The notes beneath the pieces were generated by a model. It saw only the letters and a program-made list of their open reading frames with translations, was not told the origin of the DNA and ran no database searches. From positions 1 to 64,000 of IMG/VR virus record IMGVR_UViG_3300043427_003501: a DNA stretch of 64,000 nucleotides. One strand, written 5' to 3'. Of the stretch, positions 49,412 through 64,000 are shown piece after piece; the stretch's first letter is position 1, and the number at the start of each line of letters is the position of its first letter. Position numbers and translations under genes: made by a program. Source of the DNA: a virus.

Positions 49412-50106
49412 TTCGCACAGAGATTCAAAAGCTGGAGCAATCGGCTCTCGTTCAACTTTTCGTACTGGATTCCACCAATCTTCCTGGCGGATCAATCCTT
49501 CGGTTTCATGCTGGAACAAACCAGTTGAGTCAGCCTGTTGTTTGGCAAGGTCAGACATACACGCCTCTGCCCATTCAAGCAGATGGATTTGACGTCAGTG
49601 CAAAGGGAGCTTTGCCGCGCCCAAAGATGGTGGTGGCCAACGTGGGTGGTTTCGTCTCGGCCGAACTGGCTGATATGGACGATCTGATCGGCGCTCGCGT
49701 CATTCGAAAGCGCACTTTTGCAAAGTACCTAGATGCGGTCAATTTCCCCGGTGGCGTCAATGCAACTGCCGACCCCAACCAATACCTGCCTGACGACATC
49801 TGGTACGTCGAGCGCAAGGTAATGGAAGATAAGAAGGTGGTTGAATTCGAACTCTCATCGGCGTTTGACTTGATGGGCGTCCAACTGCCCAATCGCCAAA
49901 TCATTCAAAACTCCTGCCCTTGGCCATATCGAGGCACGGTTTGCGGCTATACAGGTACCGGCTACACGAAGGATAACTTGCCCACGACGGCCAACTCCGC
50001 CACCGATGTGTGCAACAAAACGCTGACAGCCTGCCGCACTCGGTTTGGAACTAGCGTCATTCGGTTTGGCGGGTTTCCAGGAGCAGTGCGTGGAACTAGC
50101 GGATGA
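49408..50106 (+). CDS. minor tail protein L
   Basis: VWQGQTY...PIQADGF, RTFAKYLD, C-terminal Fe-S Cys set CPW.YRG..CGY...C.K...AC..RF..FGGFP. Confidence 0.9.
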   Translation: MIRTEIQKLEQSALVQLFVLDSTNLPGGSILRFHAGTNQLSQPVVWQGQTYTPLPIQADGFDVSAKGALPRPKMVVANVGGFVSAELADMDDLIGARVIRKRTFAKYLDAVNFPGGVNATADPNQYLPDDIWYVERKVMEDKKVVEFELSSAFDLMGVQLPNRQIIQNSCPWPYRGTVCGYTGTGYTKDNLPTTANSATDVCNKTLTACRTRFGTSVIRFGGFPGAVRGTSG

Positions 50107-50842: not shown

Positions 50843-51467
50843 CGGTCCCCTCGGCAAGAAATTTGGAAGGAACTGGGAGCTCGACGTCTCCGGTCCGGCC
50901 GAAGCTCTGCGTTTGATCGACGCCAATGTTACGGGCTTTCGTAAATGGATTGCCGATAACGCCAAAAAGTACCAAGAGTACCGAGTTACTGTGGAGTATG
51001 AGGACGGTCGTAAGGCTGACCTTGATAGCAATGAATTTGCCACTCACTGTAAGGCGAAAACGATTCGATTTGCGCCGTTAATCAAGGGCGCATCAGGTGT
51101 GGCCAAAGTTATTGTGGGCGCCATCATGGTGGCGATAGCTTACTTTGTACCAGGCCCCTGGAGTCCATATCTCTACAAGATTGGCGCTGCCATGATACTT
51201 GGGGGAGTTGTGGAGCTACTCAGTCCGCGACCCAAGACCAAGAACCAGGATGGCACTGAGCTCAACTCCTACTACTTCGACGGACCTCTGAACACCGAAC
51301 AACAAGGTCGGCCCGTGCCGCTCATTTATGGTCGTGTAATGACGGGTTCTCAGGCAATTTCTGCCTCCATTTCCATTGACGAACTGTCCATTCCCGCAGT
51401 CAAGCCTGAAGCTCCAGGCACAGATGTCTGGGTTGGTGAGTCCAATGGCTATATTGACGGTCCCTGA
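50820..51467 (+). CDS. tail assembly protein I
   Basis: LSGPLGKKFGR, SYYFDGPLNT..QGRPVPLIYGR. Confidence 0.88.
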   Translation: MLTKVILSGPLGKKFGRNWELDVSGPAEALRLIDANVTGFRKWIADNAKKYQEYRVTVEYEDGRKADLDSNEFATHCKAKTIRFAPLIKGASGVAKVIVGAIMVAIAYFVPGPWSPYLYKIGAAMILGGVVELLSPRPKTKNQDGTELNSYYFDGPLNTEQQGRPVPLIYGRVMTGSQAISASISIDELSIPAVKPEAPGTDVWVGESNGYIDGP

Positions 51468-51475
51468 GTATTCTA

Positions 51476-54400
51476 ATGAACGAAGTTAAAGACTCCCTAC
51501 AGTCGCGAGCGCTGCTGTCCATTCTTGACCTTTTGGGTGAAGGCGAGATTGCAGGTCTTGTAAATGGCGATCGGTCGATCTTCTTTAACGAGACCCCGCT
51601 TCGAAACGCTGACGGCACCTACAACTTCAAAGGCGTCACGACTGCCGGTACCTACGGAACAAATAATCAGTCACCACTGACGGGTTTTGGCAACTCGGTC
51701 GAGACGCCTTACAACATTGGCGTCAAGCTGAGCTTTCTCACTCCTTATACGTTTGCAGTCACCAACTCCGCAGCCGACTTGGCGCGGGTCATTATCAATA
51801 TCCCTGGACTTTCGAAGACCAATTCGGAAAACGGCGATATTAACGGCACGACCGTTGAATACAAATTTCAACTTTCAACAGATGGCGGCCCATTTCAGGA
51901 TGTCGCCGTCGATGCGGCATATGTAGATGATGTCACATGGTCCCAAGTCGGCGGTTACTGGCAAGTTACCGCACCTGCTGGCTCTTCGAAACTAACAGCC
52001 TCAATTACCGCAACCAGCACAGGCAACGGTGTTGGCCAAATCGTCTTTCAGCCGCAAGAGTTCAACGGCACCTCCTGGGTAAATCTGGGCGAGACAAAGA
52101 CGGTTGAGGTTATCGGCGCCTGGGAGAACAGCTATAGCGAGGCTCCCGCATTCAAGACTCGCGCATCTTTGTCGATGCCTGTTGAGAGCGTCTACAGCAC
52201 GATTCGATTTGTGCCAGTTTCGGTTCGACTTGACTCTGGAACCTCGATCAGTCCGGCTCAGGGTAACGCATCGTACTGGAAGCGCAGTCCTACAGTCACG
52301 ATCAGTGGCAAGACTCGCTCGAAGTACCAGCGAAGCCACATTCTGAGCTTGCCGACGCCGCGCACAAGCGCTCAAATTCGCGTCACTCGCCTTACAGCCG
52401 ATGCGGCAGATTCGCTCACGGTAAACGAGACATGGATTGAATCGTTCACTGAGATCACTTCGCTGAACATCAACTACCCGAATTCCGCACTCGTTGGCGT
52501 TCGAATCGATGCTCAGCAGTTCAACTCAATCCCGTCACGGGCGTATCTGGTTGACGGCCTGAAGATTCAGGTGCCGTCCAACTACAACCCTGTCACTCGA
52601 GTCTATACGGGAGTTTGGAACGGTACCTTTCAGACAGCGTACAGCAACAACCCGGCCTGGGTACTGTATGACGTTCTAACGAACAACCGTTATGGTCTTG
52701 GAAATTACCTGACGCCATCGCAGGTAGACAAGGCGGCCCTCTACACAATCGGCAAGTATTGCGACGAGCTTGTACCAGATGGGCAAGGCGGGACAGAGCC
52801 TCGCTTCACAATCAACACAGTCATTCAGAATGCTGCCGACGCCTACAAGGTGATCATGGACATCACCTCGGCATTCCGAGGTATGGCTTTTTGGGATGGT
52901 GGAGTTGTGGGTCTCATGCAGGATTCGCCTGCAGACCCCTCAATGCTCTACACCAATGCCAACGTAGTGGATGGCATGTTCTCGTACACCGGAAGTGCGA
53001 GAAAAGATCGGCATAGCGTCGTTCATGTGACATGGAACGACCCGTCGGACAACTATAAGCGCAAGGTTGAGTACGTCGAAGACCCTGAACTTATCCAGCG
53101 CTTCGGTATTCGCCGTACCGATACGCTGGCTTTTGGCTGTACATCGCGTGGTCAAGCCGCTCGTGTCGGTAAGTGGATTCTCTATACCGAGCGCTACGAA
53201 TCTGATGTCATTCAGTTCAAAGTTGGCGTCGATTCTGCATTCTTGTCGCCAGGCGAAATCATCAAGATTCACGACCGCGACAAGTCAGGCAAGCGCTTCG
53301 GCGGCAGGCTGGTTTCTTGCACTACAACGGGCGCTACTCTCGACTCTGCCATCGAGCTGACCGCTGGAACAACCGTCATCTCTCTGATGATGCCGGATGG
53401 CACATTTGTCGAGCGCACTCTTGACCAAACCAACGGAACCTTCCTTAACGTCACCTGGGCGCAGGCACTGACGCAACTGCCGGTCGCGGACGCTGTATGG
53501 ATGGCGTCCCAGGGCACGCTGTCGCCGATGTTGGCGCGAGTCATTGGAATCGCTCAGGGCGAGGACAACACATTCGAGATTTCGGCGGTTGAGCACAATC
53601 CATCGAAGTTTGGAGCCATTGAGCTGGGGCTTGCTCTGCAGACGCAGACAACCTCCATCATCGATCCGAAGTTTGTTGATACGCCGGAAAGCCTTCTGAC
53701 CGTTGAGCGACAGCTTCTGAATGACCTCGGTCAGCCCGAAATTCGCCTTTCGATTTCGTGGTACAGCAATGCCGGTCGGCATGAAATTGCCTATCGAAAC
53801 GTCAGTGTCGATAGAGGCTCTAACTGGACTCAACTCACGATTGAGAACCAGAACTTCTTTGAGATCGTCAATCCTAGTTTGGGCGAGTACGAGATTGCCA
53901 TCACCGCAATCAACCCTCTGGGCAGGCGTTCAAAGACGGCTCGAATCAACCACATCGTTGTTGGCAAAGTTGCCAACAGTGATCTGCCGACAGACCTGAC
54001 GATTCGTCCCATCTTTAGCGGTATTGCGCTGACCTGGACAAACGCAGGCAACAAGGACTTCTCTGGTGTCGAAATCTGGCGCAATGCGTCGAACGCAATC
54101 GGAAGCGCACAGCACATCGACACAACAGCCTCGTCTACCTACACCGACATGACGGTGGATGCGGCTGACGGTGAACGCTTCTACTGGATTCGTGCGTTTG
54201 ATGTCTACGGCAACACGACCAGCTATGTAGGCCCTGTCAATGGGTCGGCGCTTGACCTTCCCGAAGGCACATACGATCCAACGCCCCCTCCAGCGCCAAC
54301 CAATGTCACAACAAAGTCGATTGTTGGCGGTGTGGTTGTCAGCTGGGATGCGCCAACTTACTCCAACCACCAAGTTGCAGAAATCTGGCGTGCGACGTCG

Positions 54401-57400
54401 AATATTTTGGGCGAAGCGCTTCTCATCGACGTCACGGCATCGAACTCCTACATCGACTATGTAGGTAACACCGGCACCTACTACTACTGGGTCCGCTTCC
54501 TCAGTGTGTCGGACATTGCTGGTCCGTACCAGGGCGTGAATGGTGTTGTGGGCACGCCTGTAGCCGATCCTGCTTTCTTGCTCGATCTGCTCAGTGGAGC
54601 TATCACAGAGGGCGAGCTGTACCAGGGTCTGAACGACCGACTCGACCTGATCGACGGCAATGGTGCCGGCTCGGTCAACGCACGAGTTGCTTTAGAAGCG
54701 GCAAATAGCGCACTAGCGTTGGCTCAAGAGATTGATGCGCGCTCCACAGCAGACGCGATATTCGCACAGGTTGACTCTGCACTCAGTTCCGCTGCGTCTT
54801 CCACAAATCAATCTCTCTCTACCGAAATCAATGCACGAGCAGCCGCAGACAGCATTCTTACTGCCGCTGCAGCAGCGGGTGCCAGCTCCACGCAGGCAAC
54901 CGCAGCATCTCTGGTTCAAGAGCAGAATGCCAGAAGCCTTGCGGAGGCTGCGCTTGCAGCTACAGACGCAAGTTTTGCCGCTCAACTCGCGAGTACCGCT
55001 TCTGCTCTGGCAAGCGAGACAGATGCTAGGCTGAGTAGTGATGCAATTCTGTCCGCCACAAATGCCGTCATCGGCACCCAGATTCAAGATGCCGCGAACG
55101 CGCTTCTTCAGGAGCAGAATGCACGTTCTGTTGCCGATTCTGTAATCTCGGCGGCGAATAACTCTACTGCGGCAGCTGTACAAAATGCAGCCGCCTCTCT
55201 CATTGCAGAGACCAGAGATCGGCTTGCAGCAGACTCTTCGCTGACATCTGTTGCCTCGGCACTGGGTACGCAGCTTCTTAATGCTACGTCTTCGATTGAC
55301 GCGGAGGCTGGTGCGCGAGCGGCATCCGATGCAGTTCTTGCGGCAACATCGACGGTAATTGGAACTCAAGTCCAAGACGCCGCAATCGCGCTTCTTCAGG
55401 AGCAAAACGCCAGGACGGTTGCAGATGCGACCCTGAGTGCAACCTCGGGAGCTCTCAGTGCGGCTATTGCGGAAGCAGCGACGAATCTCATCGCCGAGCA
55501 GGCGAGCAGAGAAGCGACGGACGCACTCCTTTCTGCCGCTAACGCCGCCACAACAGCACAAGCACAGGCTACAAGCGCAGCTCTTGCCGATGAGCTCAAT
55601 GCTCGCACCCTTGCGGATTCGACGATCAGTGCAGTAACTGCGACGCTTGGCACGCAGGTACAGGACGCGGCGAACTCTCTGCTGGCGGAGCAGAGCGCAA
55701 GAGCGCAAGCGGACAGCACGATTGCTGCTGCTACCCAAGCAACAGAGATTCGCGCGCAAGATGCTGCGGCTGCCGTCCTTCAAGAGAAGAACGCTCGCGA
55801 AGTTGCGGATACGATTTTCGCAGCGGCAGATGCTGCGACCGATATTCGTGCGGCGACCATCTCGGCATCGCTTCAGACGGAGATCGATGCGCGAGCGCTC
55901 GCGGATTCCCTGAATGCGGCTAGGGCAGATGTGTTCGAAGTGCGGTCGGCCGAAATCGCCAACTCGGTTGTAGCCGAGATTGCGACAAGAGCGACCGCTG
56001 ATAGCACCATTCAAGCGGCTCTGAATGCTGTTGACGCGACGGCCGGTCAGGCAGTTGCGGCAGTGTTTTCCGAGGTGGATCAGAGAACAACAGCTGATAG
56101 CGCCATTGCGGCTATTTCCTCGGGGCTGATCGCCGCCCAAGCAGGCAACGCCGCTGCAATTCATACAGAACAGCAAGCTCGCGCTGACGCAGACTCGGCT
56201 TCTGCCGGAGTCTCGGCAACTCTTGCCGCTGCCTCTGCTGCATCCGCAGCAGCGCTGACCGTTGAACAAGGTGTTCGGGCCGATGCGGATTCTGCAAACG
56301 CTACCGCGACGGTGTCTCTAGGTGCGGCAGTTGGTCAGAACGCCGCCGCACTCATCGTTGAACAGCAGGTCCGAAGCGATTCGGACTCTGCCGCAGCGAC
56401 CGCGTCAACCTCATTGGCAGCCGCAGTAGGTGCCAATACTGCAGCAATCCAGAGTGAAGTTGCGGTTCGTGCGGGCGAGACCGGAGCGCTTGCATCCCAA
56501 GTAACGGCCATCGGCGTTGCTCTGGACGACAAAGCTAGCGTTAGCTCGGTAAACAGCCTTGCTTTGGATATCCAAACAATTGACGGAGAGCTTACAGCCC
56601 AGGGTCAGCAGATTGCCGCACTCTCGGCATCGATCAATACTGGAACAGAGGAGCTTCAGGCGGCTCTAGAGATCGAGCAACTCGTTCGAGCTTCCGAAAC
56701 AGAGGCACTGACTAGCACAACTACTCTTCTGCAGGCTCAGACGAGCGAAAATGCCGCTGCAATCCAAAATGAGGCGCTTGCTCGAGCTACTGCTGATTCC
56801 GCAGAAGCTGCTCAACGAGTGATCCTCAGTGCTCGGGTTGATTCTGCGGAGCTGGGCATCGCATCTAACGCCGCCGCTCTGGTAACAGAGCAACAAGTCC
56901 GTGCAGATGCGGATAGTTCTGCAGCCGCTCAAGTATCTCAATTGAGTGCAGTAACAGCAGCTAGCTTTGCTGCAATCCAAACGGAGCAACAGACCCGTTC
57001 GGATGCTGATGGCGCAGTTGCTAGCCAGCTATCGCAACTGAGTGCGACGGACGCAGCTAACACTGCGGCAATTCAAACAGAACAACAGACCCGAGCTGAC
57101 GCTGATTCTGCTACCGCATCCCAACTTTCCGGACTGTATGCGGCAACTCAGGCAAATGCAGCTTCGGTTCAAGTTGAACAGCAGGCAAGAGCAGACGCCG
57201 ACGCGGCATCTGCTGCGCAGACCAGTGCTCTTGCGGCAACAACTGCGGCAAACTCGGCTGCATTGCTCGTTGAGCAACAGGCTCGTACCGACGCTGATAG
57301 TGCTACGGCAAGTCAGGTTACTTCACTCGCTTCTTCGGTAGCCGCAGGCGATAGCACAAATGCTGCTGCGCTGATCGTCGAGCAGCAGACTCGTGCGGAC

Positions 57401-60400
57401 TCCGACAGTGCTCTTTCGACCCAAGTCGGAGTTCTTACGGCGTCGGCCAGCTCTAACGCGGCGGCGATTCAGATCGAGCAGCAGGCTCGAGCGGACGCAG
57501 ATAGTGCCGCAAGCACGCAAGTGGCAACTTTGGCTGCGCAGAGTGCCAATACAGTTGCAGGTCTTGTTTCTGAGCAGCAAGTCCGTGCGGACTCCGATAG
57601 CGCGGCATCTCTGCAGATCAACAGTCTCGGAGCAACAGCGGCGGCCAATAGTTCAGCGCTGGCAACAGAACAACAGGCGCGGGCTGACGAGACTTCAGCT
57701 CTCTCTTCGCAAGTTACCAGCCTGAGCGCTCAAGTCACGATTGGTGACCAGAGTAGCGCCGCTGCAATCCTCGTTGAGCAACAAGCTCGCGCTGATGCTG
57801 ACAGCGCTGCCGCCTCTCAGGTTCTTTCTCTTGCGGCTAGCACAGCGACTTCTGCCGCAGCTTTGAGCGCCGAGCAAGATGTCCGAGCTTCGGCCGACGC
57901 TGCAAGCGCTTCTCAGGTGTCAAGCCTTGCCGCCAGTTTGGGCGACAACAGCGCTGGCATTCAAGCGGAACAACTGGCTCGTGCCGATGCAGATTCTGCT
58001 TTTGCTCAGCAATCGACCACATTGGCTGCTGCGACTGCCGCAGCCTCTGCGGGCTTGGTCGCTGAACAACTTGCAAGAGCCGATGAGGATTCCGCTCTCT
58101 CGTCCCAGATCGTTGGTCTTGTCGCCAATGTTGGTGCAAACAACGCTGCTTTGGCTGTCGAGCAGCAGGCTCGAGTTGATTCCGACGCCGCTGTTGCATC
58201 ACAAGTCACAGCTTTGTCGGCATCTGTTGCTCAGGGCGACACACTCGTATCAGCCGCACTGGCAGTTGAGCAACAAGTCAGGGCTGAGTCGGACAGTGCG
58301 ATTTCGTCACAACTGACTTCACTTGCCGCAACGTCGGAAGAAAATGCTGCCGCGATTCTTGTTGAGCAGAACGCTCGTGCAGATGCCGATAGTGCTACAG
58401 CCAGCCAAGTCACAAACCTGGCATCAGGCTTTGGCAGCAATGCCGCTGCACTCCTTGTCGAACAACAAGCTCGTACCGATGCCGATCTTGCAACTGCGGG
58501 CCAGATCACTGGCTTGTCAGCGGCTGTCGGAACAAACGTCGCTGGACTTACCGCAGAGCAGCAAGTTCGGGCCGACTCGGATTCGAGCTTCTCCGGACAG
58601 CTGACGAGTCTGGTTGCCGCTACTGGAGCAACCAGCGCCGGATTGAGCGCGGAGCAGCAAGCTCGCGCTGATGCAGATGCTGCAACATCATCCCAACTGA
58701 CAACCCTGAGTGCTCGTGTTGACCTGGGAGACAGTGCCAACGCAGCAGCCCTCACCGTCGAGCAGCAAGCGCGTGCGGACGCTGATTCAAGCGTTGCGAC
58801 TCAAATCACAACACTTGCGGCCGCCACTGCCAATACCGCAGCAGAAATCACAGCGGAGCAACAGGCTCGTGCTGACGCCGATAGTGCGACCGCAGGGCAG
58901 CTCCTGAACCTTGCAGCTACTAATGCTACAAATGCGGCAGCGCTCCAGGTCGAGCAACAAGTTCGTGCCGATCAAACAAGTGCTCTTAGCCAACAAACCA
59001 GTATCCTGGCCGCTCAGGTTGGGGATGCAACCGCAGGCATTCTCCAAGAGCAGAACGCTCGCGCTACGGCAGATGCAGCTCAAGCCTCTCTGATCACGGG
59101 TCTGCAGGTATCGGCAGATACGGGCTTTCAGATCAACTCAGCGGCTATCGTTCAAGAGCAACAGGCTCGAGTTGACACCGATTCGGCGGTTGCGAATCAA
59201 ATCACAACGCTGAGCGCCCAGGCAGGACAGACCTCGGCGGGTCTGGTCACAGAACAGCAAGTCCGTTCGGATGCGGACAGTGCTTTCTCGTCTCAGGTGG
59301 CGGGTCTTGCGGCTTCTACCGGAGCCAATGCTGCAGCGTTGACCATCGAGCAGCAGACTCGGGCTGATCAAAACTCCTCTCTGTCTTCACAGGTGACATC
59401 TCTGGCCGCTAGCAGCGCCAGCAACAATGCTGCCTTGCAAGTGGAGCAGCAGGTTCGAACCGATGCCGATCTTGCCTCTGCTCAACAAGTTACGACTCTT
59501 GCTGCCGCTACAGCACAAACAACGGCAGGTCTGTTGTCCGAGCAAGAGGTAAGGGCTACTTCTGACCTGGCGCTCTCAGCCACAACAGCGGGTCTGACAG
59601 CGGCGCTTGGCCAGGCGAATGCAAACATTCTGGCGGAGCAACAAGTTCGCGCCGATGCAGACTCCTCGACAGCATCTCAAATAGTTGCGCTCAATGCGAC
59701 AACAGGAAGCAACACCGCTGCGATTCTGTCCGAGCAGACTGTTCGCTCTGACGAAACAGCCGCGCTTGCCTCTCAAATCACAAGTATTACGGTAGCGCTC
59801 GATGATAAGGCTTCGGTAACGGCGCTGAACGCTCTGGATGTCCAAGTACAGACGATTGATGGTGTCGTCGTTGCGCAAGGACAGCAGATTAGCCAGCTTC
59901 TTGCCGAGCAGACAACTGATGTCGCGGCGCTGGAAGCTGCAATCGAGGTCGAGACGCTCGTTCGAGCGGCAGAAACCGAGGCTCTTGTCCAGACGACGGA
60001 GACTCTGACAGCTTCCTTTAACTCAAACGCTGCCGCAATCCAACAAGAGGCAACTGCTCGAGCTGACGGCGATTCAGCTGAAGCGGCTCAGCGGCTCATT
60101 CTTGCCGCCCGAGTCACGGCTACTGAAGGCGACATTGCTGCCAGTCAAGCGGCTCTCAGCGTCGAGCAAACTACTCGCGCCGATGCAGATGGAGCTCTAT
60201 CTGGTCAGGTCACATCACTGAGCGCAACCAGCGCAGGCAACGCTGCAGCGCTCCAGGTCGAGCAACAAGTTCGTGCCGATGCTGATTCTTCAACATCGTC
60301 TCAACTGACATCGCTGACAAGTGCTGTTGGCGCAGCCGCTTCTTCCATTACGGTTGAGCAGCAAACTCGTGCAGATGCCGATGCTTCGTCAGCCTCACAG

Positions 60401-63400
60401 ATTGCAACACTCGGCTCATCAACCGGAAGTAACACTGCTGCCATTCAAACAGAGCAGCAGACTCGTGCTGACGCCGACTCGGCTTCTAGCCTGCAAGTCG
60501 CAACTCTAGCCAGCTCGACAGCCAGCAACACGGCGGGATTGGTAGCAGAGCAGCAGACACGGACTGACCAAGGCTCCGCTCTGTCTTCACAGATCACCGG
60601 ACTGACCGCAACAGTTGGCGCAAGCACTGCGGCTCTGACCGTCGAACAGCAAGCCCGTGCGGACGCGGATTCAGCAGTTGCCTCTCAAGTCACCTCTCTC
60701 GCAGCGTCTGTTGCCACAGGCGATACGATCGTTTCCTCCGCGCTAACGGTTGAGCAACAAGTTCGTGCTGATGCGGATAGCGCCACATCGGCTCAGGTCA
60801 CATCGCTGGCGGCAGCAGTAGGGGCAGATAGTGCCGCTCTTGTTGTAGAGCAGCGGACTCGTGCAGATCAAGACATCAGCCTGTCTTCTCAGGTCACGAG
60901 CCTGTCTGCAGGATTCAGCTCATCGAACGCCGCACTTCAGTTCGAACAGCAGACTCGGGCTGATGCGGACTCGGCGTCAGCCAGCCAAGTCACCACGCTG
61001 GCAGCGCAAACAGCAAGCACAAGCGCCGGTCTTCTTGCCGAGCAGCAGGTGCGAGCTGATGCCGATAGCAGTGTCTCCAGCACGATCAACGGTCTGACGG
61101 CCGCTACTGGACAGAACGCTTCGGCGCTCCTGGTAGAGCAACAGGCTCGCGCTGACGCTGACTCTTCGGCCGCTTCTCAGATTACAGCCTTGACGGCTTC
61201 GACAGGAAGCAATGCAGCTGCAATCCTGAACGAGGTCAGTGTTCGCTCCAGCGAGACTTCGGCTCTTGCAAGCCAGATCAGCTCCATGACGGTGACGCTG
61301 GGCGAAAAGGCCAGCGCTTCCGCTCTGAATGCACTGACCGTTGATGTCCAAACTCTCGACGGCGAGGTGACAGCCCAAGCATCGCAAATTGCCGCGCTGA
61401 CCGCCGCTCAGACGACGGATGTTGCGGACATTCGCGCCGACTTGGAAATTGAGCAGATTGTTCGAGCGTCCGAGACAGAAGCTCTGACACAAACGACAGA
61501 GACGTTGACAGCCTCGTTCGCATCAAACGCCGCAGCGATCGCACAGGAAGCAATTGCACGAGCTGACGCTGACTCGGCTGAAGCTGCACTTCGAGTAGCT
61601 TTGGCTGCAACCGTCGCAACGGGCGATAGCACCAACTCGGCAGCGCTGTCGGTGGAGCAGACGACTCGCGCCGATGCTGATTCCGCTACAAGTGGACAGC
61701 TTACAACTCTGGTCTCGTCGGTAGGATCAAACGCTGCGGCGATCATCACAGAGCAGCAGACCCGAGCCGATGCTGACGGCGCAACGTCGAGTCAGATTGC
61801 AACACTGGCGTCATCTACCGCCAATACAGCCGCAACGCTCGTCACTGAACAGCAGACTCGGGCTGACGCCGACAGCGCTGCATCGTCGCAAGTAACAACG
61901 CTGGCCGCCAACACAGCAGCTACTGGAGCAGCACTTCAGACGGAGCAGCAGACTCGTGCTGACGCAGACTCTGCCTCCAGTTTGCAAGTTGTCACTCTTG
62001 CGGCATCGACAAGCAATACGTCCGCAGGTCTTGTGGCGGAACAGCAAGTTCGCGCAGATCAAAACTCCTCACTGTCCTCGCAAGTCTCTGCGTTGACTGC
62101 CAATGTTGGAGCCAGCGCCGCCGGTTTGATCGTCGAGCAAACCGTTCGCGCACAGGCCGACTCGGCATCGGCCCAGCAGCTCACTGCGCTGGCTGCGGCC
62201 ACGGGAAATAACGCGGCTGCTCTTTCGTCTGAGATCACTACACGGTCTAGCGAGACGTCCGCTCTCGCAAGTCAAATTACAAGCCTGAACACGGCGCTTG
62301 GTGATAAGGCGAGTGCTTCAGCCTTGAACGCTCTGACGGTAGACGTCCAAACACTCGACGGCGAAGTTACTGCACAGGCATCACAGATCGCGGCTTTGAC
62401 GGCAGCGCAGACAACTGATGTAGCCGATATTCGTGCGGACTTGGAGATCGAACAAATCGTTCGAGCTTCGGAAACTGAGGCTTTAACGCAGACGACTGAG
62501 ACGCTGACTTCTTCGGTAGCGTCAAATACTGCGGCAATTCAGCAAGAGGCCACCACTCGCGCAAATGCCGATTCCGCCGAGGCTGCGCTGAGAGTGCAGC
62601 TAGAAGCCACCGTCACTTCGGGAGACTCTACAAACTCTGCGGCGATCACAACTGAGGCCACAACTCGAGCCACTGCTGACTCTGCCGCTAGTGGGCGCAT
62701 CGATGCGCTGACAGCTTCTGTTGGTGATGCTCGTTCTGCCATCATCACAGAGCAGCAAGTTCGCAGTAATGCCGACTCTTCCTCCGCTCAGCAGACGACA
62801 TCCCTAGCTTCGGCTTTTGGGACCAATGCCGCCGCTCTTGTAGTGGAGCAACAGACTCGCGCAGATGCTGACACAGCGTCCTCTTCTCAAACTACAACAC
62901 TTTCATCGGCTGTAGGCGCAAACGCCGCTGCACTGCAAACACAAGCACAAACAAGCTCCACTGCCGACTCAGCGCTGGCCGCACAGTCTTCAATTCTGAC
63001 GGCGAACACAGCTTCGGCAACAGCCGGCCTTGTTGCAGAGGCTCAAGCGCGAGCCACCGCCAACTCTGCCGAAGTACAGCAACTCTCGGCCCTGGTCACA
63101 TCTGCTGGAGCCAACTCCGCAAGCATCGTCGCAGAGCAGACAGCTCGGTCCAACGAGACCTCGTCGCTCTCAACCCAAGTCAACACACTCAGTGCATCCA
63201 CGAGCGCCAACACTGCCGCGATCACTACGGAACAGACTGCTCGAGCCAATGCCGACAGTGCGATGGCCAGCGAAATTCGCCAGGTTCAGGCGGTCGCAAC
63301 AGCTTTTGATGCCGGTATTGCGTGGAATTTCGACAGCGGAGTTGAAGGGTGGACGGCCACAAGCGCAAGCGCATCTGCCGCCAATAGCGTTGTCACACTA

Positions 63401-64000
63401 ACCTCAACTGGCGGCGGCGATCCAATCTTCTTTTCGCCTTCCGGACTTACGATTGATGGTTCCAAAAACTATCTGGTTCGGGCTCGAGTGAAGCGTACAG
63501 CGGGTAGTGGGTGGGACGGAACTCTTTTTTATGTCACTGCGGGCCATACTTTTAGTGCCCTTTATTACAAAGTAATTCCCGATACTACGATTCTGAATGA
63601 GTGGGTGGTGCTGGAATGGGATATGTCCACGCAACAAGCTGGCGGAACGGATTGGACGACAAATACTATCACCCAAATCCGACTGGATTTGGGTGCAACA
63701 CTTGCGGCTGCAGATGTATTTCAGATTGACTGGGTCACGATTGGGCGCACAGCTCCGCAAACCTACAGTGCTGCCATTCAACAGGAGATCACAACTCGCG
63801 CCACTCAAACGGGCGATATCTTTGCAAAGTATGGCATCAAGGTTGATGTTGCAGGGCATGTGTCAGGTTTTGGCCTGATTTCGACAGCTAACGACGCAAC
63901 TCCGACCAGCGAGTTCGGCATTCGCGCCGACAAGTTCTGGATTGCTGGACCCTCCGTTTCCCAGGCGACTGCACCGACTGCTAACCTGTACAAGGGCTAC
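51476..64000 (+). CDS. giant tail tip/central fibre protein J, 3' truncated by the window (at least 4175 codons; missing from ORF track)
   Basis: ATG at 51476; LDLLGEGEIAGL, NYPNSAL, YSNNPAWVLYD, FGCTSRGQA.R.GKW.L, FN3-like domains, coiled-coil repeats, then KYGIKVD.AGHVSGFGL...F.IRADKF (DUF1983-like); same frame at 61346, 62345 and 63782 (spot checks, not every codon). Confidence 0.9.
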   Translation, partial: MNEVKDSLQSRALLSILDLLGEGEIAGLVNGDRSIFFNETPLRNADGTYNFKGVTTAGTYGTNNQSPLTGFGNSVETPYNIGVKLSFLTPYTFAVTNSAADLARVIINIPGLSKTNSENGDINGTTVEYKFQLSTDGGPFQDVAVDAAYVDDVTWSQVGGYWQVTAPAGSSKLTASITATSTGNGVGQIVFQPQEFNGTSWVNLGETKTVEVIGAWENSYSEAPAFKTRASLSMPVESVYSTIRFVPVSVRLDSGTSISPAQGNASYWKRSPTVTISGKTRSKYQRSHILSLPTPRTSAQIRVTRLTADAADSLTVNETWIESFTEITSLNINYPNSALVGVRIDAQQFNSIPSRAYLVDGLKIQVPSNYNPVTRVYTGVWNGTFQTAYSNNPAWVLYDVLTNNRYGLGNYLTPSQVDKAALYTIGKYCDELVPDGQGGTEPRFTINTVIQNAADAYKVIMDITSAFRGMAFWDGGVVGLMQDSPADPSMLYTNANVVDGMFSYTGSARKDRHSVVHVTWNDPSDNYKRKVEYVEDPELIQRFGIRRTDTLAFGCTSRGQAARVGKWILYTERYESDVIQFKVGVDSAFLSPGEIIKIHDRDKSGKRFGGRLVSCTTTGATLDSAIELTAGTTVISLMMPDGTFVERTLDQTNGTFLNVTWAQALTQLPVADAVWMASQGTLSPMLARVIGIAQGEDNTFEISAVEHNPSKFGAIELGLALQTQTTSIIDPKFVDTPESLLTVERQLLNDLGQPEIRLSISWYSNAGRHEIAYRNVSVDRGSNWTQLTIENQNFFEIVNPSLGEYEIAITAINPLGRRSKTARINHIVVGKVANSDLPTDLTIRPIFSGIALTWTNAGNKDFSGVEIWRNASNAIGSAQHIDTTASSTYTDMTVDAADGERFYWIRAFDVYGNTTSYVGPVNGSALDLPEGTYDPTPPPAPTNVTTKSIVGGVVVSWDAPTYSNHQVAEIWRATSNILGEALLIDVTASNSYIDYVGNTGTYYYWVRFLSVSDIAGPYQGVNGVVGTPVADPAFLLDLLSGAITEGELYQGLNDRLDLIDGNGAGSVNARVALEAANSALALAQEIDARSTADAIFAQVDSALSSAASSTNQSLSTEINARAAADSILTAAAAAGASSTQATAASLVQEQNARSLAEAALAATDASFAAQLASTASALASETDARLSSDAILSATNAVIGTQIQDAANALLQEQNARSVADSVISAANNSTAAAVQNAAASLIAETRDRLAADSSLTSVASALGTQLLNATSSIDAEAGARAASDAVLAATSTVIGTQVQDAAIALLQEQNARTVADATLSATSGALSAAIAEAATNLIAEQASREATDALLSAANAATTAQAQATSAALADELNARTLADSTISAVTATLGTQVQDAANSLLAEQSARAQADSTIAAATQATEIRAQDAAAAVLQEKNAREVADTIFAAADAATDIRAATISASLQTEIDARALADSLNAARADVFEVRSAEIANSVVAEIATRATADSTIQAALNAVDATAGQAVAAVFSEVDQRTTADSAIAAISSGLIAAQAGNAAAIHTEQQARADADSASAGVSATLAAASAASAAALTVEQGVRADADSANATATVSLGAAVGQNAAALIVEQQVRSDSDSAAATASTSLAAAVGANTAAIQSEVAVRAGETGALASQVTAIGVALDDKASVSSVNSLALDIQTIDGELTAQGQQIAALSASINTGTEELQAALEIEQLVRASETEALTSTTTLLQAQTSENAAAIQNEALARATADSAEAAQRVILSARVDSAELGIASNAAALVTEQQVRADADSSAAAQVSQLSAVTAASFAAIQTEQQTRSDADGAVASQLSQLSATDAANTAAIQTEQQTRADADSATASQLSGLYAATQANAASVQVEQQARADADAASAAQTSALAATTAANSAALLVEQQARTDADSATASQVTSLASSVAAGDSTNAAALIVEQQTRADSDSALSTQVGVLTASASSNAAAIQIEQQARADADSAASTQVATLAAQSANTVAGLVSEQQVRADSDSAASLQINSLGATAAANSSALATEQQARADETSALSSQVTSLSAQVTIGDQSSAAAILVEQQARADADSAAASQVLSLAASTATSAAALSAEQDVRASADAASASQVSSLAASLGDNSAGIQAEQLARADADSAFAQQSTTLAAATAAASAGLVAEQLARADEDSALSSQIVGLVANVGANNAALAVEQQARVDSDAAVASQVTALSASVAQGDTLVSAALAVEQQVRAESDSAISSQLTSLAATSEENAAAILVEQNARADADSATASQVTNLASGFGSNAAALLVEQQARTDADLATAGQITGLSAAVGTNVAGLTAEQQVRADSDSSFSGQLTSLVAATGATSAGLSAEQQARADADAATSSQLTTLSARVDLGDSANAAALTVEQQARADADSSVATQITTLAAATANTAAEITAEQQARADADSATAGQLLNLAATNATNAAALQVEQQVRADQTSALSQQTSILAAQVGDATAGILQEQNARATADAAQASLITGLQVSADTGFQINSAAIVQEQQARVDTDSAVANQITTLSAQAGQTSAGLVTEQQVRSDADSAFSSQVAGLAASTGANAAALTIEQQTRADQNSSLSSQVTSLAASSASNNAALQVEQQVRTDADLASAQQVTTLAAATAQTTAGLLSEQEVRATSDLALSATTAGLTAALGQANANILAEQQVRADADSSTASQIVALNATTGSNTAAILSEQTVRSDETAALASQITSITVALDDKASVTALNALDVQVQTIDGVVVAQGQQISQLLAEQTTDVAALEAAIEVETLVRAAETEALVQTTETLTASFNSNAAAIQQEATARADGDSAEAAQRLILAARVTATEGDIAASQAALSVEQTTRADADGALSGQVTSLSATSAGNAAALQVEQQVRADADSSTSSQLTSLTSAVGAAASSITVEQQTRADADASSASQIATLGSSTGSNTAAIQTEQQTRADADSASSLQVATLASSTASNTAGLVAEQQTRTDQGSALSSQITGLTATVGASTAALTVEQQARADADSAVASQVTSLAASVATGDTIVSSALTVEQQVRADADSATSAQVTSLAAAVGADSAALVVEQRTRADQDISLSSQVTSLSAGFSSSNAALQFEQQTRADADSASASQVTTLAAQTASTSAGLLAEQQVRADADSSVSSTINGLTAATGQNASALLVEQQARADADSSAASQITALTASTGSNAAAILNEVSVRSSETSALASQISSMTVTLGEKASASALNALTVDVQTLDGEVTAQASQIAALTAAQTTDVADIRADLEIEQIVRASETEALTQTTETLTASFASNAAAIAQEAIARADADSAEAALRVALAATVATGDSTNSAALSVEQTTRADADSATSGQLTTLVSSVGSNAAAIITEQQTRADADGATSSQIATLASSTANTAATLVTEQQTRADADSAASSQVTTLAANTAATGAALQTEQQTRADADSASSLQVVTLAASTSNTSAGLVAEQQVRADQNSSLSSQVSALTANVGASAAGLIVEQTVRAQADSASAQQLTALAAATGNNAAALSSEITTRSSETSALASQITSLNTALGDKASASALNALTVDVQTLDGEVTAQASQIAALTAAQTTDVADIRADLEIEQIVRASETEALTQTTETLTSSVASNTAAIQQEATTRANADSAEAALRVQLEATVTSGDSTNSAAITTEATTRATADSAASGRIDALTASVGDARSAIITEQQVRSNADSSSAQQTTSLASAFGTNAAALVVEQQTRADADTASSSQTTTLSSAVGANAAALQTQAQTSSTADSALAAQSSILTANTASATAGLVAEAQARATANSAEVQQLSALVTSAGANSASIVAEQTARSNETSSLSTQVNTLSASTSANTAAITTEQTARANADSAMASEIRQVQAVATAFDAGIAWNFDSGVEGWTATSASASAANSVVTLTSTGGGDPIFFSPSGLTIDGSKNYLVRARVKRTAGSGWDGTLFYVTAGHTFSALYYKVIPDTTILNEWVVLEWDMSTQQAGGTDWTTNTITQIRLDLGATLAAADVFQIDWVTIGRTAPQTYSAAIQQEITTRATQTGDIFAKYGIKVDVAGHVSGFGLISTANDATPTSEFGIRADKFWIAGPSVSQATAPTANLYKGY
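54700..63290 (+). repeat. protein-level 32/36-aa repeats (EQQxRADADSA...) with four higher-order nodes
   Basis: Units start at 57080, 57176, 57272, 57380 and 57476 (96/108-nt spacing); (D/E)KAS...QTxDG nodes near 56528, 59804, 61304 and 62303. Confidence 0.9.

What the first reader, a model, noticed from the sequence alone, without database searches (positions are those of the whole stretch)
51476..64000. Hidden giant J protein with a ~2,800-aa coiled-coil stalk that may exceed the tail in length
Seen: an ORF absent from the track, at least 4175 codons. It has a lambda-J-like N-terminus and FN3-like domains, about 8.6 kb of 32/36-aa Ala/Ser/Thr/Gln repeats, a beta-rich domain and a DUF1983-like segment. 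Established: lambda J is about 1,100 aa. Inference: at about 0.15 nm per residue the stalk would be roughly 400 nm, versus roughly 200 nm for a tail set by the 1471-aa TMP. That would be an extremely long central fibre, perhaps for host capture in dilute water or for reaching through capsule or sheath.
Basis: partly seen in the sequence, partly recalled or inferred. Interest (0 to 1): 0.75.

Follow-up and report, generated by a model that had tools for sequence, protein, structure and literature searches.

The report
Half-micron phage tail-tip fibre gene
A freshwater phage encodes a 5,211-residue version of the lambda J tail-tip protein whose helical shaft has grown to about 90 repeats, predicting a central fibre about twice as long as the tail and built from units that in a related pyocin refold to breach the cell envelope.

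Summary
The ORF starts at 51476, has no stop in the window, and ends at contig base 67111, giving 5,211 aa. It follows TMP and M/L/K/I homologues. Its N-terminus is a lambda-J/TipJ hub. Residues ~1052-3951 are about 85-90 diverged units of 32 aa, some of 36. A 164-aa piece models as a parallel in-register trimeric coiled coil (ipSAE 0.56, best control 0.00). That gives ~425 nm against ~220 nm for a tail set by the 1,471-aa TMP. Contigs from two freshwater samples tile the gene, and 36 of 40 natural variants are synonymous, so it is not an artefact. Giant J proteins (to 4,155 aa) and this repeat type are already in databases. The longest comparable shaft among 271 comparators is 1,435 aa. New here: each unit carries the SxSxxMxxLxS fold-switch signature of the F-pyocin fibre shaft. 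The rod may therefore be metastable. This scan noted related giant J fibres before on other DNA. Verdict: real, an extreme variant of a known kind; interest 0.62.

The parts
44642..49057 (+). Tape measure protein, 1,471 aa. It sets the tail length at about 220 nm by the 0.15 nm per residue rule.
   Evidence: PHROG 1292 'tail length tape measure protein', E 7.5e-127. The ORF is listed. The rule is as used in PMC9928086.
49073..51467 (+). Tail-tip genes in lambda order: M-like (49073-49411), L-like (49408-50106), K-like (50045-50842) and I-like (50820-51467).
   Evidence: PHROG 14 (E 4.1e-30), PHROG 18 (2.7e-102), PHROG 30 (1.2e-92) and PHROG 32 'tail assembly protein' (7.2e-57).
51476..64000 (+). 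Central fibre (TipJ/J-like) gene. The whole gene is 51476-67111 in contig coordinates (same numbering as the window) and encodes 5,211 aa. The window holds the first 4,175 codons.
   Evidence: Beyond the window lie the rest of module M2 (to aa ~4276), a middle block (aa ~4277-4982) that includes a confident beta-sandwich at aa ~4522-4660, and the C-terminal module M5 (aa 4983-5211).
51476..53965 (+). J hub core, aa 1 to ~830: FNIII-A, hub domains and the Phage-tail_3 domain.
   Evidence: Pfam PF24801 and PF13550. PHROG 31 and PHROG 2589. PDB 25vf at 1e-132, 8iyk at 4.2e-123 and 9e7m at 5.4e-123.
53966..54595 (+). FN3-like domains distal to the hub, aa ~831-1040.
   Evidence: The alignment to lambda J and pyocin fibre chains runs to aa 918-927. 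Tail-fibre PHROGs 19394, 496 and 37064 hit aa 934-1076. There is a weak Pfam DUF4959 hit at aa 934-964. The boundaries are approximate.
54629..63298 (+). Helical shaft, aa ~1052-3941: about 85-90 units of 32 aa (some of 36 or 39), with consensus EQQxRADADSAxxSQvtsLaAxxgxNaAAlxv.
   Evidence: E1 and R5 in 55 of 55 canonical units, L19 in 52 of 55. A unit HMM finds 66 units. AF2 models it as helix. The trimer model is a coiled coil. The fold-switch motif is present.
56519..56659 (+). Interruption module A: a 47-residue loop (41 extra residues) at unit positions 22-27, aa 1682-1728. It holds the only break in the AF2 helix.
   Evidence: Unit table and alignment A1. AF2 gives pLDDT below 50 at model residues 95-104, which is aa ~1691-1700.
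59795..59935 (+). Interruption module B, aa ~2774-2820.
   Evidence: The position follows from alignment to module A. It was not folded on its own as the first row.
61295..61435 (+). Interruption module C, aa ~3274-3320.
   Evidence: The DNA of the C and D super-repeats is 79% identical, with most differences synonymous.
62294..62434 (+). Interruption module D, aa ~3607-3653.
58937..58972 (+). First copy of the only long exact DNA repeat in the gene (36 nt). The second copy is at 60245-60280, 1,308 nt (436 codons) downstream and in frame.
   Evidence: The de Bruijn contigs of runs X1 and X3 break only here.
60245..60280 (+). Second copy of the 36-nt exact repeat.
63299..63754 (+). M1, aa ~3942-4093: a beta-rich CBM/galactose-binding-like domain, inserted in the loop (unit positions 22-27) of the last repeat unit.
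   Evidence: ESM Atlas look-alikes are Lyase_N, Exop_C, CBM27 and CBM30 at 0.93-0.95, a lead only. It is shared at 41-55% identity with other fibres: P0179, P0151, P0131, P0223 and P0247. Pfam finds nothing at E<=1. The position in the loop was read from the sequence.
63755..64000 (+). Start of M2 (aa 4094 to ~4276; it continues to contig base ~64303): the last E..R half-unit leading into beta strands, and the first DUF1983/Phage_Tail_Tip-like piece.
   Evidence: Pfam PF09327 at aa ~4221-4263, E 3.2e-8. It is 50-70% identical to the post-repeat module of many shorter fibres. AF2 places strands here but at low confidence.

Best explanation
This is a real, intact gene for the central tail fibre (lambda gpJ / TipJ family) of an uncultured freshwater siphophage.

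Shown by sequence and searches:
- The N-terminal ~830 residues are the conserved tail-tip hub. FN3-like domains follow.
- The short alpha-helical shaft of ordinary J proteins is expanded here to ~2,900 residues. It consists of about 85-90 old, diverged 32-residue units.
- The distal ~1,270 residues are a mosaic of beta-rich modules. They include lectin-like beta-sandwiches and two DUF1983-type pieces, and they are shared with other phage fibres.

Predicted: three chains form a parallel, in-register coiled coil. Its contour length is about 0.42 micrometres, roughly twice the tail. It has four possible hinges at 41-residue loop insertions.

Inferred function:
- The rod holds glycan-binding tip modules far from the tail tip. 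This enlarges the capture radius or lets the phage reach a receptor under a thick surface layer.
- Each unit carries the motif pair that lets the homologous F-pyocin shaft refold into a beta-prism. Receptor binding is therefore most likely relayed to the hub by at least a partial coiled-coil-to-prism switch that starts at the distal beta-prism seed.
For: Gene intact, 5,211 aa.

Synteny: TMP, M, L, K, I, then J.

J family: Pfam, PHROG and PDB hits.

Repeat anatomy.

Coding and purifying selection:
- Paralogous modules C and D differ at 68 synonymous and 15 non-synonymous codons in their first 110 codons.
- 36 of the 40 natural variants listed in runs X3 and X7 are synonymous, and 36 of 40 lie at codon position 3.

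Assembly:
- Contigs of two samples from two studies tile all 15,636 bases at 99% identity or more.
- They break only at one 36-nt exact repeat.
- X1 depths are 192/186/204, and 403 for the repeat. This fits one pass through the array.

Helix and trimer:
- AF2 pLDDT is 79, with helices at 2-93 and 103-303.
- Trimer ipSAE is 0.56 (runs 0.53-0.64) against a best control of 0.00. The mark was reached by 20 of 30 solved pairs and 1 of 23 single chains in the tool's calibration. The runs agree in 95% or more of contacts, and partner pLDDT is 82 or more.
- Contacts are in register at 3-4 residue spacing, 9 per 32 residues.

Homology of the shaft to solved J-type shafts: 9ze4 at 2.7e-9, F2 pyocin fibre residues 975-1080 at 2.9e-6, and 23gd at 1.3e-3. 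The F2 shaft is a three-stranded coiled coil (PMC13455828).

Fold-switch motif:
- Reverse motif in 61 of 63 units, forward motif in 47 of 63, and the E1-R5 pair in 63 of 63.
- 94 forward and 119 reverse matches, against about 38 +/- 5 (maximum 55) in 500 shuffles.
- The motif's M and L positions (1, 16, 19, 30), with the E1 salt-bridge partner R5, are in the modelled interface. S positions 6, 11, 13, 21 and 28 are not. This is as the paper describes.

Distal lectin-like modules.
Against: - No virion, EM, proteomic or host data exist. Expression could not be checked.
- The trimer pass may reflect the model's memory of coiled coils in general. My own 6-row paralogue alignment was used, so the tool's calibration holds only roughly.
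- Hydropathy Fourier analysis on the Kyte-Doolittle scale did not give 32/9 = 3.56 among its 15 strongest periods. The top periods were 2.0, 2.13 and 4.0. The sequence is Ala-rich, which that scale counts as hydrophobic.
- The SxSxxMxxLxS pattern is loose. About 38 matches arise by chance in this composition, and other registers also match: forward at phase 4 (19 times), reverse at phase 14 (31 times).
- The distal AF2 model is poor (mean pLDDT 41.9). The 'seed' prism and the receptor-binding tip are therefore not structurally established.
- The lectin-like assignments rest on middling scores: Z 8.4 or less, Atlas 0.95 or less.
- In run X3 the 1.3-kb piece between the 36-nt repeats has half the depth of its flanks. 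The population may hold a shorter form.
Confidence: 0.72

Rival explanations
1. Contractile tether. The whole shaft is a metastable coiled coil. After the tip binds, it zips unit by unit into a beta-prism from the distal seed. This shortens the fibre several-fold, from ~425 nm to some tens of nm, reels the tail tip to the cell surface, and finally opens the hub.
For: - The F7 pyocin shaft (163 residues) makes exactly this switch, and blocking it abolishes killing (PMC12874032: abstract, sections 6 and 10, and legends read).
- Our shaft is homologous to the F-pyocin shaft.
- It carries the motif in alternating orientation in nearly every unit.
- The buried and exposed pattern is as described in the paper.
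- All insertions (+4, +7 and +41 aa, and the ~150-aa M1 domain) sit in one loop between the two motifs, where a hairpin turn would lie.
- Beta-strand sequence with a DUF1983 match follows the shaft.
Against:
- The paper's switch spans 163 residues, not 2,900.
- Lambda and T5 do not show such an extensive switch (paper's discussion).
- The motif is loose.
- I could not see the paper's figures or supplements, so the number of strands per 32-aa unit, and hence the contracted length, is uncertain.
- M1 lies between the last unit and the presumed seed, and might block propagation.
Confidence: 0.25
2. Folded or stowed fibre. The coiled coil is real, but in the virion it is bent back at the four interruption modules or laid along the tail. 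Its working reach would then be that of the longest segment (~160 nm) or less, not 425 nm.
For: - AF2 breaks the helix only in the interruption module.
- There are four such modules, giving segments of ~95, 160, 73, 48 and 48 nm. The positions of modules B-D are extrapolated from alignment A1.
- Kinks in the F2 pyocin shaft exist and serve as attachment sites.
- The tail region encodes an Ig-domain protein (43030-43896) that could in principle hold a fibre.
Against: - The segment lengths are unequal, which does not suit a neat antiparallel bundle.
- No evidence of any kind bears on the stowed state.
- The trimer model shows only in-register parallel contacts, although a single 164-aa piece cannot show fold-back.
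Confidence: 0.2
3. Scaffold for side fibres. The shaft's main role is to carry several sets of lateral receptor-binding fibres at its kinks and interruption modules, as the F2 pyocin shaft carries three side-fibre trimers.
For: - In the F2 pyocin, side fibres attach to the shaft at a Gly kink.
- He et al. suggest that short non-coiled stretches may be side-fibre attachment sites (legends).
- Our units have Gly at position 24 in 24 of 55 units, and there are four conserved 41-aa insertions.
- Seven ORFs of 121-371 aa lie downstream of J with no family assignment.
Against: None of the downstream ORFs matched a tail-fibre family. Pfam gave nothing above threshold, and PHROG gave only unknown-function or weak hits. 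No binding was tested.
Confidence: 0.15
4. Assembly artefact. The repeat array was expanded or chimerically joined by the assembler, and the real gene is much shorter.
For: - The source is a metagenome.
- One 36-nt exact repeat pair makes the k=31 graph ambiguous for a 1,308-nt piece.
- That piece has half the flank depth in run X3.
Against: - Units are only 48% identical on average at the DNA level (maximum 71%) over 1,485 pairs. The longest exact repeat is 36 nt. TRF finds no tandem array.
- Two samples from two studies give the same path with 2 differences in 15.6 kb. Both are flagged as possible sources, so at most one is independent.
- X1 depths fit a single pass.
- The frame stays open for 15.6 kb, with synonymous-dominated divergence.
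- At worst the ambiguity removes 436 of 5,211 residues.
Confidence: 0.03

Closest known systems
Bacteriophage lambda gpJ (tip attachment protein J, 1,132 aa; PDB 8iyk, 8xcg)
   Same: Homologous hub core: E 4.2e-123, our aa 267-918 against J residues 146-801. Same gene order after TMP-M-L-K-I. Same domain logic: hub, FNIII, alpha-helical shaft, beta-prism central straight fibre, then tip. The nomenclature is from PMC11101478 (passages read).
   Different: Lambda's shaft is a short three-helix bundle, and the whole fibre region is ~320 residues. Here the shaft alone is ~2,900 residues. The distal modules show no sequence match to lambda's (nothing below E 0.34). No LamB-type RBD was recognised.
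F-type pyocin central fibre proteins (F2 PyoF10, PDB 25vf; F7 CFP of He et al. 2026, PMC12874032)
   Same: Best PDB match of the hub (1e-132). The shaft repeats align to residues 975-1080 of the F2 fibre (2.9e-6). The shaft is a three-stranded coiled coil with kinks. The SxSxxMxxLxS motif and buried Glu-Arg pairs are present.
   Different: The pyocin shaft is ~163-180 residues, about 5 units. This one has about 85-90 units. The pyocin tip is completed by separate PyoF11/F12 proteins, whereas here large lectin-like modules are fused in cis. The fold switch is shown for F7 only and is not tested here.
Giant TipJ proteins of SSU5-like phage-plasmids and Acinetobacter elements (about 2,880-4,155 aa; PHROG 2589)
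   Same: Same family. The hub is 42-48% identical. They are very large, with helical segments and sugar-binding-type modules. Earlier notes of this scan describe them.
   Different: In the 14 of these giants that I profiled, the longest Gly/Pro/aromatic-poor stretch is 0-370 aa by the stricter window. By the more tolerant measure, the longest among all the giants held (P0116) is 872 aa. Acinetobacter ones show 7/14/21-residue periods. Their length therefore comes mainly from strings of beta modules. Only 1 of 1,070 scored giants (P0122) matched our repeat. None of the 120 listed exceeds 4,155 aa (248 further hits were not listed).
Database fibre proteins with the same 32-aa repeat (for example P0157, P0215, P0136 with a J core; P0123, P0161 without)
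   Same: Same unit type: 1,329 representatives at E<=1e-3 and 98 at E<=1e-30. 23 of the best 150 have a J core. Many share the post-repeat module M2 and the C-terminal module M5.
   Different: The best 150 are 562-2,850 aa long. They have at most 23 detectable units against 66 here. Their shafts are at most 1,435 aa, and ~1,000-1,090 aa in J-core proteins, against 2,900 here. 14 of the 150 begin inside shaft-like sequence and may be fragments of longer genes.

Membership tests
Lambda gpJ / TipJ central tail fibre (Pfam PF13550, PF24801; PHROG 31) | Homologous tail-tip hub domains at the N-terminus | tested here: met
   PF24801 at E 4.5e-30 and PF13550 at E 1.4e-27, both above their curated cut-offs. 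PHROG 31 at E 1.2e-284. PDB 8iyk at 4.2e-123 and 25vf at 1e-132.
Lambda gpJ / TipJ central tail fibre (Pfam PF13550, PF24801; PHROG 31) | Gene lies directly after the tape measure and the M, L, K and I homologues | tested here: met
   PHROGs 1292, 14, 18, 30 and 32 lie in that order at 44642-51467. J starts 8 nt after the I-like stop.
Lambda gpJ / TipJ central tail fibre (Pfam PF13550, PF24801; PHROG 31) | Distal fibre part with a helical shaft followed by a beta-prism 'tail tip fibre' (DUF1983) segment | tested here: met
   The shaft is homologous to solved J-type shafts. Pfam PF09327 is above cut-off at two sites. The prism fold itself is not established (AF2 pLDDT 41.9).
Lambda gpJ / TipJ central tail fibre (Pfam PF13550, PF24801; PHROG 31) | Homotrimer in the virion | tested here: inconclusive
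   A three-copy model of aa 1805-1968 passes (ipSAE 0.56, best control 0.00). This is a prediction, and it may reflect likeness to known coiled coils. There are no virion data.
Fold-switching central fibre shaft of F-type pyocins and siphophages (He et al. 2026) | Sequence homology of the shaft to the F-pyocin coiled-coil region | tested here: met
   F2 pyocin fibre residues 908-1086 at E 1.4e-3 with a single sequence, and residues 975-1080 at E 2.9e-6 with a profile. The F7 chain itself was not among the hits.
Fold-switching central fibre shaft of F-type pyocins and siphophages (He et al. 2026) | SxSxxMxxLxS pattern in alternating orientation, with Asp/Glu at M paired with Arg four residues away | tested here: met
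   Reverse motif in 61 of 63 units, forward in 47 of 63, and the E1-R5 pair in 63 of 63. Totals are 94 and 119 against ~38 +/- 5 in 500 shuffles. The residue classes are taken from the paper's text. The pattern is loose.
Fold-switching central fibre shaft of F-type pyocins and siphophages (He et al. 2026) | M and L positions buried and S positions exposed in the coiled-coil state | tested here: met
   The interface list of the trimer model includes unit positions 1, 5, 16, 19 and 30. It omits 6, 11, 13, 21 and 28. Position 4 is borderline.
Fold-switching central fibre shaft of F-type pyocins and siphophages (He et al. 2026) | Non-switching beta-prism 'seed' directly after the shaft | tested here: inconclusive
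   Strands are predicted at aa ~4118-4157, but with pLDDT of ~41-45. A DUF1983 match lies nearby. The ~150-aa M1 domain is inserted before the last half-unit.
Fold-switching central fibre shaft of F-type pyocins and siphophages (He et al. 2026) | An alternative beta-prism conformation of the same residues (predicted or observed) | not tested
CF-random and AF3 are not available here.
Giant modular J fibres of SSU5-like and Acinetobacter elements (PHROG 2589) | Length made up of many beta-sandwich modules strung on short coiled-coil segments | tested here: not met
   Here one nearly uninterrupted 2,900-aa helical array accounts for the extra length. The 14 profiled comparators have 0-370 aa by the window, and the longest among all the giants held is 872 aa by the measure. 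The PHROG 2589 profile matches our hub strongly (2.3e-285) but the shaft only weakly.

The most novel reading that the evidence does not exclude
The 2,900-residue shaft is a giant stored-energy device. It would be a half-micrometre metastable coiled coil of about 180 fold-switch strand motifs. After the lectin-like tip binds, it converts progressively into a beta-prism from the distal end. That would carry the binding signal over ~0.4 micrometres without any diffusible messenger. At the same time it would shorten the fibre several-fold, winching the virion down to the cell surface before the hub opens. This would be a retractable fibre in a non-contractile phage.
Probability: 0.22. Interest if true: 0.9.

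Novelty: new variant of a known kind. Interest (0 to 1): 0.62.

Why it matters
Siphophage central fibres are usually tens of nanometres long. A fibre predicted at about twice the tail length raises two concrete questions: how does receptor binding at the far end trigger DNA release, and what does extra reach buy in dilute fresh water?

[quoted passage not shown] This protein offers the same unit repeated about 18 times more often than in the F7 pyocin. It is a natural extreme case for asking whether such switches propagate, how much work they can do, and whether shaft length is tuned by unit gain and loss.

The units are diverged enough to be cloned and expressed in defined numbers. It also shows that gene callers working on windows or short contigs will miss or fragment such genes.

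Tried and rejected
- Tandem Repeats Finder on the DNA found nothing. The units are too diverged at the DNA level for it.
- Megablast of 24 kb against deposited phages gave only 5 tiny matches, each covering 1% or less. There is no close cultured relative.
- phmmer of the distal 1,311 aa against PDB sequences gave nothing below E 0.34.
- Pfam on aa 3921-4100, 4401-4700 and 4701-4966 gave nothing at E<=1.
- Foldseek of the helical AF2 model against the PDB gave 0 matches, as expected for a bare helix.
- The AF2 model of the distal 1,116 aa had mean pLDDT 41.9, and only aa ~4156-4195 and ~4526-4655 are usable. VIA matches to tailspike C-terminal domains and CBM32 have Z of 8.4 or less and are leads only.
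- tblastn of the distal 1,272 aa against the 88 fetched loci returned an empty table, and the script then stopped with an index error. I read this as no hit at E<=1e-5.
The alignment tool was used instead.
- The hydropathy Fourier spectrum did not single out 3.5-3.6 residues. I do not count it for or against a coiled coil, because Ala dominates the sequence.
- Downstream ORFs (67108-72534) gave no Pfam family above threshold and only weak or unknown PHROGs.
- Literature searches for very long siphophage central fibres or giant J proteins found nothing specific. These were three keyword searches of the open-access library only, so this is not proof that nothing is in print.
- The search of earlier findings by place and by sequence returned nothing.
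- Runs X5 and X7 hold only short low-depth pieces. I draw no habitat or strain conclusion from them beyond using the listed variants. One X7 contig joins 7870 back to 4904 of the gene at depth 4.6 (table 5c). It was not interpreted.
- The N@d adhesin-stalk reading was considered because Asn is common at unit position 26 (29 of 55). It was not pursued, since the unit is 32 residues and homologous to J shafts.


Full report
**Observation**

The ORF listing gives 51476..64000 on the + strand, 4,175 codons, ATG start, open at the window's 3' end. The translation has no stop. The window is bases 1-64000 of a single 72,547-bp contig. There the frame continues to TGA at 67109-67111, so the protein has 5,211 residues.

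**Context**

The contig is a siphophage genome.
- Head and replication genes: large terminase (34547-35794), portal (35842-37446), scaffold, major head protein (38537-39448), an Ig-domain protein (43030-43896), a ribonucleotide reductase, an RNA ligase and a helicase.
- Directly upstream of the ORF lie a 1,471-aa tape measure protein and homologues of lambda M, L, K and I, in that order.
- No deposited phage is close at the DNA level.
- The hub part of the protein is at most 43% identical to any of 1,780 matching phage records, and all are below 60%.
- All sequencing runs that hold the gene are labelled freshwater metagenome.
- Prophage-type relatives of the hub occur in Burkholderiales genomes, among others: Undibacterium 40%, an unnamed Burkholderiales 43%, Ramlibacter 34%. 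This is only a hint at the host.

**Anatomy**

- aa 1 to ~830 is the J/TipJ hub. Evidence: Pfam FNIII-A_GpJ and Phage-tail_3; PHROG 31 at E 1.2e-284; PDB F2-pyocin fibre 25vf at 1e-132 and lambda J 8iyk at 4.2e-123.
- aa ~831-1040 are FN3-like domains.
- aa ~1052-3951 is one long stretch poor in Gly, Pro and aromatic residues. It is 56-64% Ala/Ser/Thr/Gln.
- Its dominant period is 32 residues (identity autocorrelation 0.366 at lag 32). Offsets of +4 reflect 36-residue variants.
- Anchoring on the E..xR motif gives 77 anchors with spacings of 32 (55), 36 (8), 64 (6), 73 (3), 39 (2), 105 and 185. That is about 85-90 units.
- In the 55 canonical units, Glu1 and Arg5 are invariant. Leu19 occurs in 52, Asp9 in 46, Leu/Ile30 in 53, Asn26 in 29 and Gly24 in 24.
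- Four 'interruption modules' recur at aa ~1682-1728, 2774-2820, 3274-3320 and 3607-3653.
- Reading the sequences, every length change lies in the same place, the loop at unit positions 22-27. This holds for +4 residues (36-aa units), +7 (39-aa units), +41 (the four modules) and the ~150-residue beta-rich domain M1 (aa ~3942-4093), which sits inside the last unit.

**Distal end (aa ~3942-5211)**

- M1 has CBM/galactose-binding-like look-alikes in the ESM Atlas (0.93-0.95; a lead only).
- M2 (aa ~4094-4276) is 50-70% identical to the module that follows the repeats in many shorter fibres. It holds a DUF1983/Phage_Tail_Tip match.
- A middle block (aa ~4277-4982) is absent from simpler relatives such as P0146. 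It holds the only confidently modelled distal domain, a beta-sandwich at aa ~4522-4660. That domain resembles C-terminal domains of phage tailspikes and CBM32 modules at middling scores (best Z 8.4, rmsd 3.1 over 110 residues).
- M5 (aa 4983-5211) has a second DUF1983 piece and aligns to the C-terminal ends of shorter fibres.
- The distal model as a whole is poor (mean pLDDT 41.9). The tip's fold and its ligand remain open. A glycan receptor is a reasonable inference, not a result.

**Is it real, or an assembly product?**

- The units are old. Over 1,485 unit pairs the mean DNA identity is 48% (maximum 71%). TRF finds no tandem repeat. The longest exact repeat in the gene is 36 nt.
- The two most similar super-repeats (aa 3253-3585 and 3586-3918) are 79% identical in DNA. 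In their first 110 codons, 68 codon differences are synonymous and 15 are not.
- Logan contigs of two samples from two studies tile all 15,636 bases at 99% identity or more, with 2 differences between them. They break only at the 36-nt repeat pair. Both samples are flagged as possible sources, so at most one is independent.
- In X1 the contig depths (192, 186, 204; 403 for the shared 36-mer) fit one pass through the array.
- In X3 the 1,332-nt piece between the repeats has depth 30.5 against 64 and 58 for its flanks. This hints that part of that population lacks 436 residues in frame. A k=31 graph cannot show such a junction, so this stays a hint.
- Of the 40 natural variants listed for X3 and X7, 36 are synonymous and 36 lie at codon position 3.
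- I conclude that the gene is genuine, translated in this frame and under purifying selection. At worst its length is uncertain by 436 residues in part of one population.

**Fold of the shaft**

- AF2 on aa 1597-1900 with its three paralogues as alignment gives pLDDT 79. It models one helix through the canonical units. The only break is in the interruption module (model residues 94-102, pLDDT below 50 at 95-104).
- A three-copy model of aa 1805-1968 passes the complex test. ipSAE is 0.56 (runs 0.53, 0.56 and 0.64), and the best of 3 controls is 0.00. The mark was reached by 20 of 30 solved pairs and 1 of 23 single chains in the tool's calibration. Runs agree in 95% or more of contacts, and partner pLDDT is 82 or more.
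- The contacts are in register (58 with 58, 83 with 83, 119 with 119). They recur every 3-4 residues, nine per 32-residue unit. That describes a parallel trimeric coiled coil with 32/9 = 3.56 residues per turn.
- Two caveats apply. Such a pass can come from the model's memory of coiled coils. My own alignment was used, so the calibration counts hold only roughly.
- Independent support comes from homology. A profile of the repeats hits the shaft segments of solved J-type fibres: 9ze4 at 2.7e-9, F2-pyocin fibre residues 975-1080 at 2.9e-6, and 23gd at 1.3e-3. [quoted passage not shown]

**Length**

- With 0.148 nm per residue (my own knowledge of coiled-coil rise), the five helical segments between the presumed hinges are ~95, 160, 73, 48 and 48 nm. 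Together they make ~423 nm. Hinges B-D are placed by alignment to A.
- The 1,471-aa tape measure predicts ~221 nm by the 0.15 nm rule. In the SSU5-like phage Cyrano that rule predicted 230 nm for a 1,525-aa TMP, and 259 nm was measured (PMC9928086, passages read).
- The predicted fibre contour is thus about 1.7-1.9 times the tail. Whether it is extended in the virion is unknown.

**How unusual is it?**

- Giant J proteins as such are known. Among proteins of 2,866-9,120 aa, 368 match the hub at E<=1e-3. The 120 listed are 2,882-4,155 aa, many from Klebsiella and Acinetobacter ~105-110-kb elements. The lengths of the other 248 were not shown.
- In the 14 giants I profiled, the longest helical-type stretch is 0-370 aa by the window. 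By the more tolerant measure, the longest among all the giants held (P0116) is 872 aa. Their length therefore comes mainly from other modules.
- Only 1 of 1,070 scored giants shares our repeat.
- The repeat type itself is widespread. There are 1,329 representatives at E<=1e-3, 541 at 1e-10 and 98 at 1e-30 among 1.84 billion. The best 150 are 562-2,850 aa long.
- A unit HMM, built from our units and so biased towards them, finds 66 units here and at most 23 in any of 271 comparators. The median is 9 among the 151 comparators with at least one unit.
- A composition-based measure gives 2,900 aa here. The next best is 1,435 aa, and J-core proteins with the same repeat reach ~1,000-1,090 aa. 23 of the 150 have a J core.
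- Among 80 IMG/VR loci with a related hub, 16 ORFs run off the locus. The longest of the other 64 is 2,470 aa. The closest (51% identity) is 2,019 aa.
- 14 of the 150 repeat hits begin inside shaft-like sequence and may be fragments of longer genes. I therefore claim an extreme member, not a proven record.
- Earlier notes of this scan describe related giant J fibres on other DNA, and one notes 3-21 copies of a 33-residue shaft repeat in SSU5-like phages. These are unchecked AI notes.

**Mechanism**

A 2026 preprint reports on the F7 pyocin (He et al., PMC12874032; I read the abstract, sections 6 and 10, and figure legends, not figures or supplements).
- The 163-residue coiled-coil shaft of the central fibre (residues 921-1083) converts into a triangular beta-prism on receptor binding. 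This opens the tip and ejects the tape measure.
- Gln substitutions at 'small' positions block killing.
- Each prism strand carries SxSxxMxxLxS, in the direction of the strand.
[quoted passage not shown] - Asp or Glu at M is often paired with Arg four residues away.

I tested this on our units.
- The reverse pattern sits at unit positions 28 to 6 in 61 of 63 units, with Glu1 at M and Arg5 at +4 in 63 of 63.
- The forward pattern sits at positions 11-21 in 47 of 63 units.
- The shaft holds 94 forward and 119 reverse matches, against about 38 +/- 5 (maximum 55) in 500 composition-preserving shuffles. The hub and the distal part hold 12 and 7, and 7 and 6.
- In the trimer model the motif's M and L positions (1, 16, 19, 30) and the Glu1 partner Arg5 are in the interface. 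S positions 6, 11, 13, 21 and 28 are not.
- Each 32-residue unit thus reads as two oppositely directed strand motifs joined by two short connectors: DADS, and the xxGxN loop where all insertions occur.
- The pattern is loose, and other registers also match. It is the phase consistency and the homology that carry weight.

My best explanation follows.
- The protein is a J-type central fibre whose shaft has been multiplied to give a very long reach, with lectin-like modules at the far end.
- The shaft units retain the properties that allow at least a local coiled-coil-to-prism switch to relay binding to the hub.
- The bolder reading is that the whole rod zips into a prism and thereby reels the virion in. 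It is not excluded and I give it about 0.2.
- Depending on whether a unit forms one or two strands, which I could not settle without the figures, ~90 units would make a prism of roughly 40-90 nm (inference).

**Comparison and verdict**

- It is a member of the TipJ family: hub, synteny and distal DUF1983 were all tested and met.
- Its shaft belongs to the F-pyocin-type shaft class by homology and motif. The defining behaviour, the switch, is untested.
- It is not built like the modular giants of SSU5-like elements.
- I rate it a new variant of a known kind. It has the same parts, but the shaft is about 18 times the F7 pyocin's and two to three times the longest comparable shaft I could find. 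This has qualitatively new consequences: a fibre longer than the tail, and the problem of long-range signalling.
- Interest is 0.62. It would surprise specialists moderately, and it offers a sharp test case for a very recent mechanism. But it comes from an uncultured phage and rests on predictions.

Noticed in passing
window 58937-58972 and 60245-60280 (L001 7462-7497 and 8770-8805): A 36-nt exact repeat pair lies 1,308 nt apart, in frame. In run X3 the contig between the two copies has about half the depth of its flanks (30.5 against 64.3 and 58.1). In X1 the depths are equal. This may be a natural 436-residue length polymorphism of the shaft that includes interruption module B.
   Followed up: partly
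window 32018-32968 (+): A 316-aa ORF matches PHROG 886 'ABC transporter ATP-binding subunit' (category moron/auxiliary metabolic gene) at E 3e-124. It sits just upstream of the packaging genes.
   Followed up: no
window 44642-49057 (+): Besides TMP families, the N-terminal part of the tape measure protein (aa 66-348) matches PHROG 1768, labelled 'endolysin', at E 3.4e-45. This may be only a shared TMP segment in that PHROG.
   Followed up: no
contig 67108-72534 (L002 7108-12534), beyond the window: Seven + strand ORFs of 121-371 aa lie directly downstream of J. None has a Pfam family above threshold, and PHROG hits are only weak or of unknown function. One has a faint 'head decoration' hit (phrog_20658, 6.6e-8). 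They are candidates for fibre accessory, chaperone or side-fibre proteins.
   Followed up: partly
window 10001-12000 and 20001-24000: These stretches have unusually high AT skew (0.18-0.195), and GC is 0.587 at 10-12 kb. No ORF of 150 aa or more lies between 17155 and 22708.
   Followed up: no
window 610-3054 and 7237-8391: The phage carries a ribonucleotide reductase (PHROG 367, E 3.3e-95) and an RNA ligase (PHROG 968, E 9.7e-49).
   Followed up: no
L001 4904 and 7870 (run X7): One low-depth (4.6) contig of a related strain joins position 7870 back to 4904 of the gene, with 9 other letters between. It could be a relative with a different unit arrangement, or a repeat-induced chimera.
   Followed up: no
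P0161 (1,780 aa) and 13 other repeat hits: These database proteins start inside shaft-like sequence. In P0161 the shaft-like stretch runs from residue 1 to 1435. They may be fragments of other very long shaft genes cut by contig ends.
   Followed up: partly
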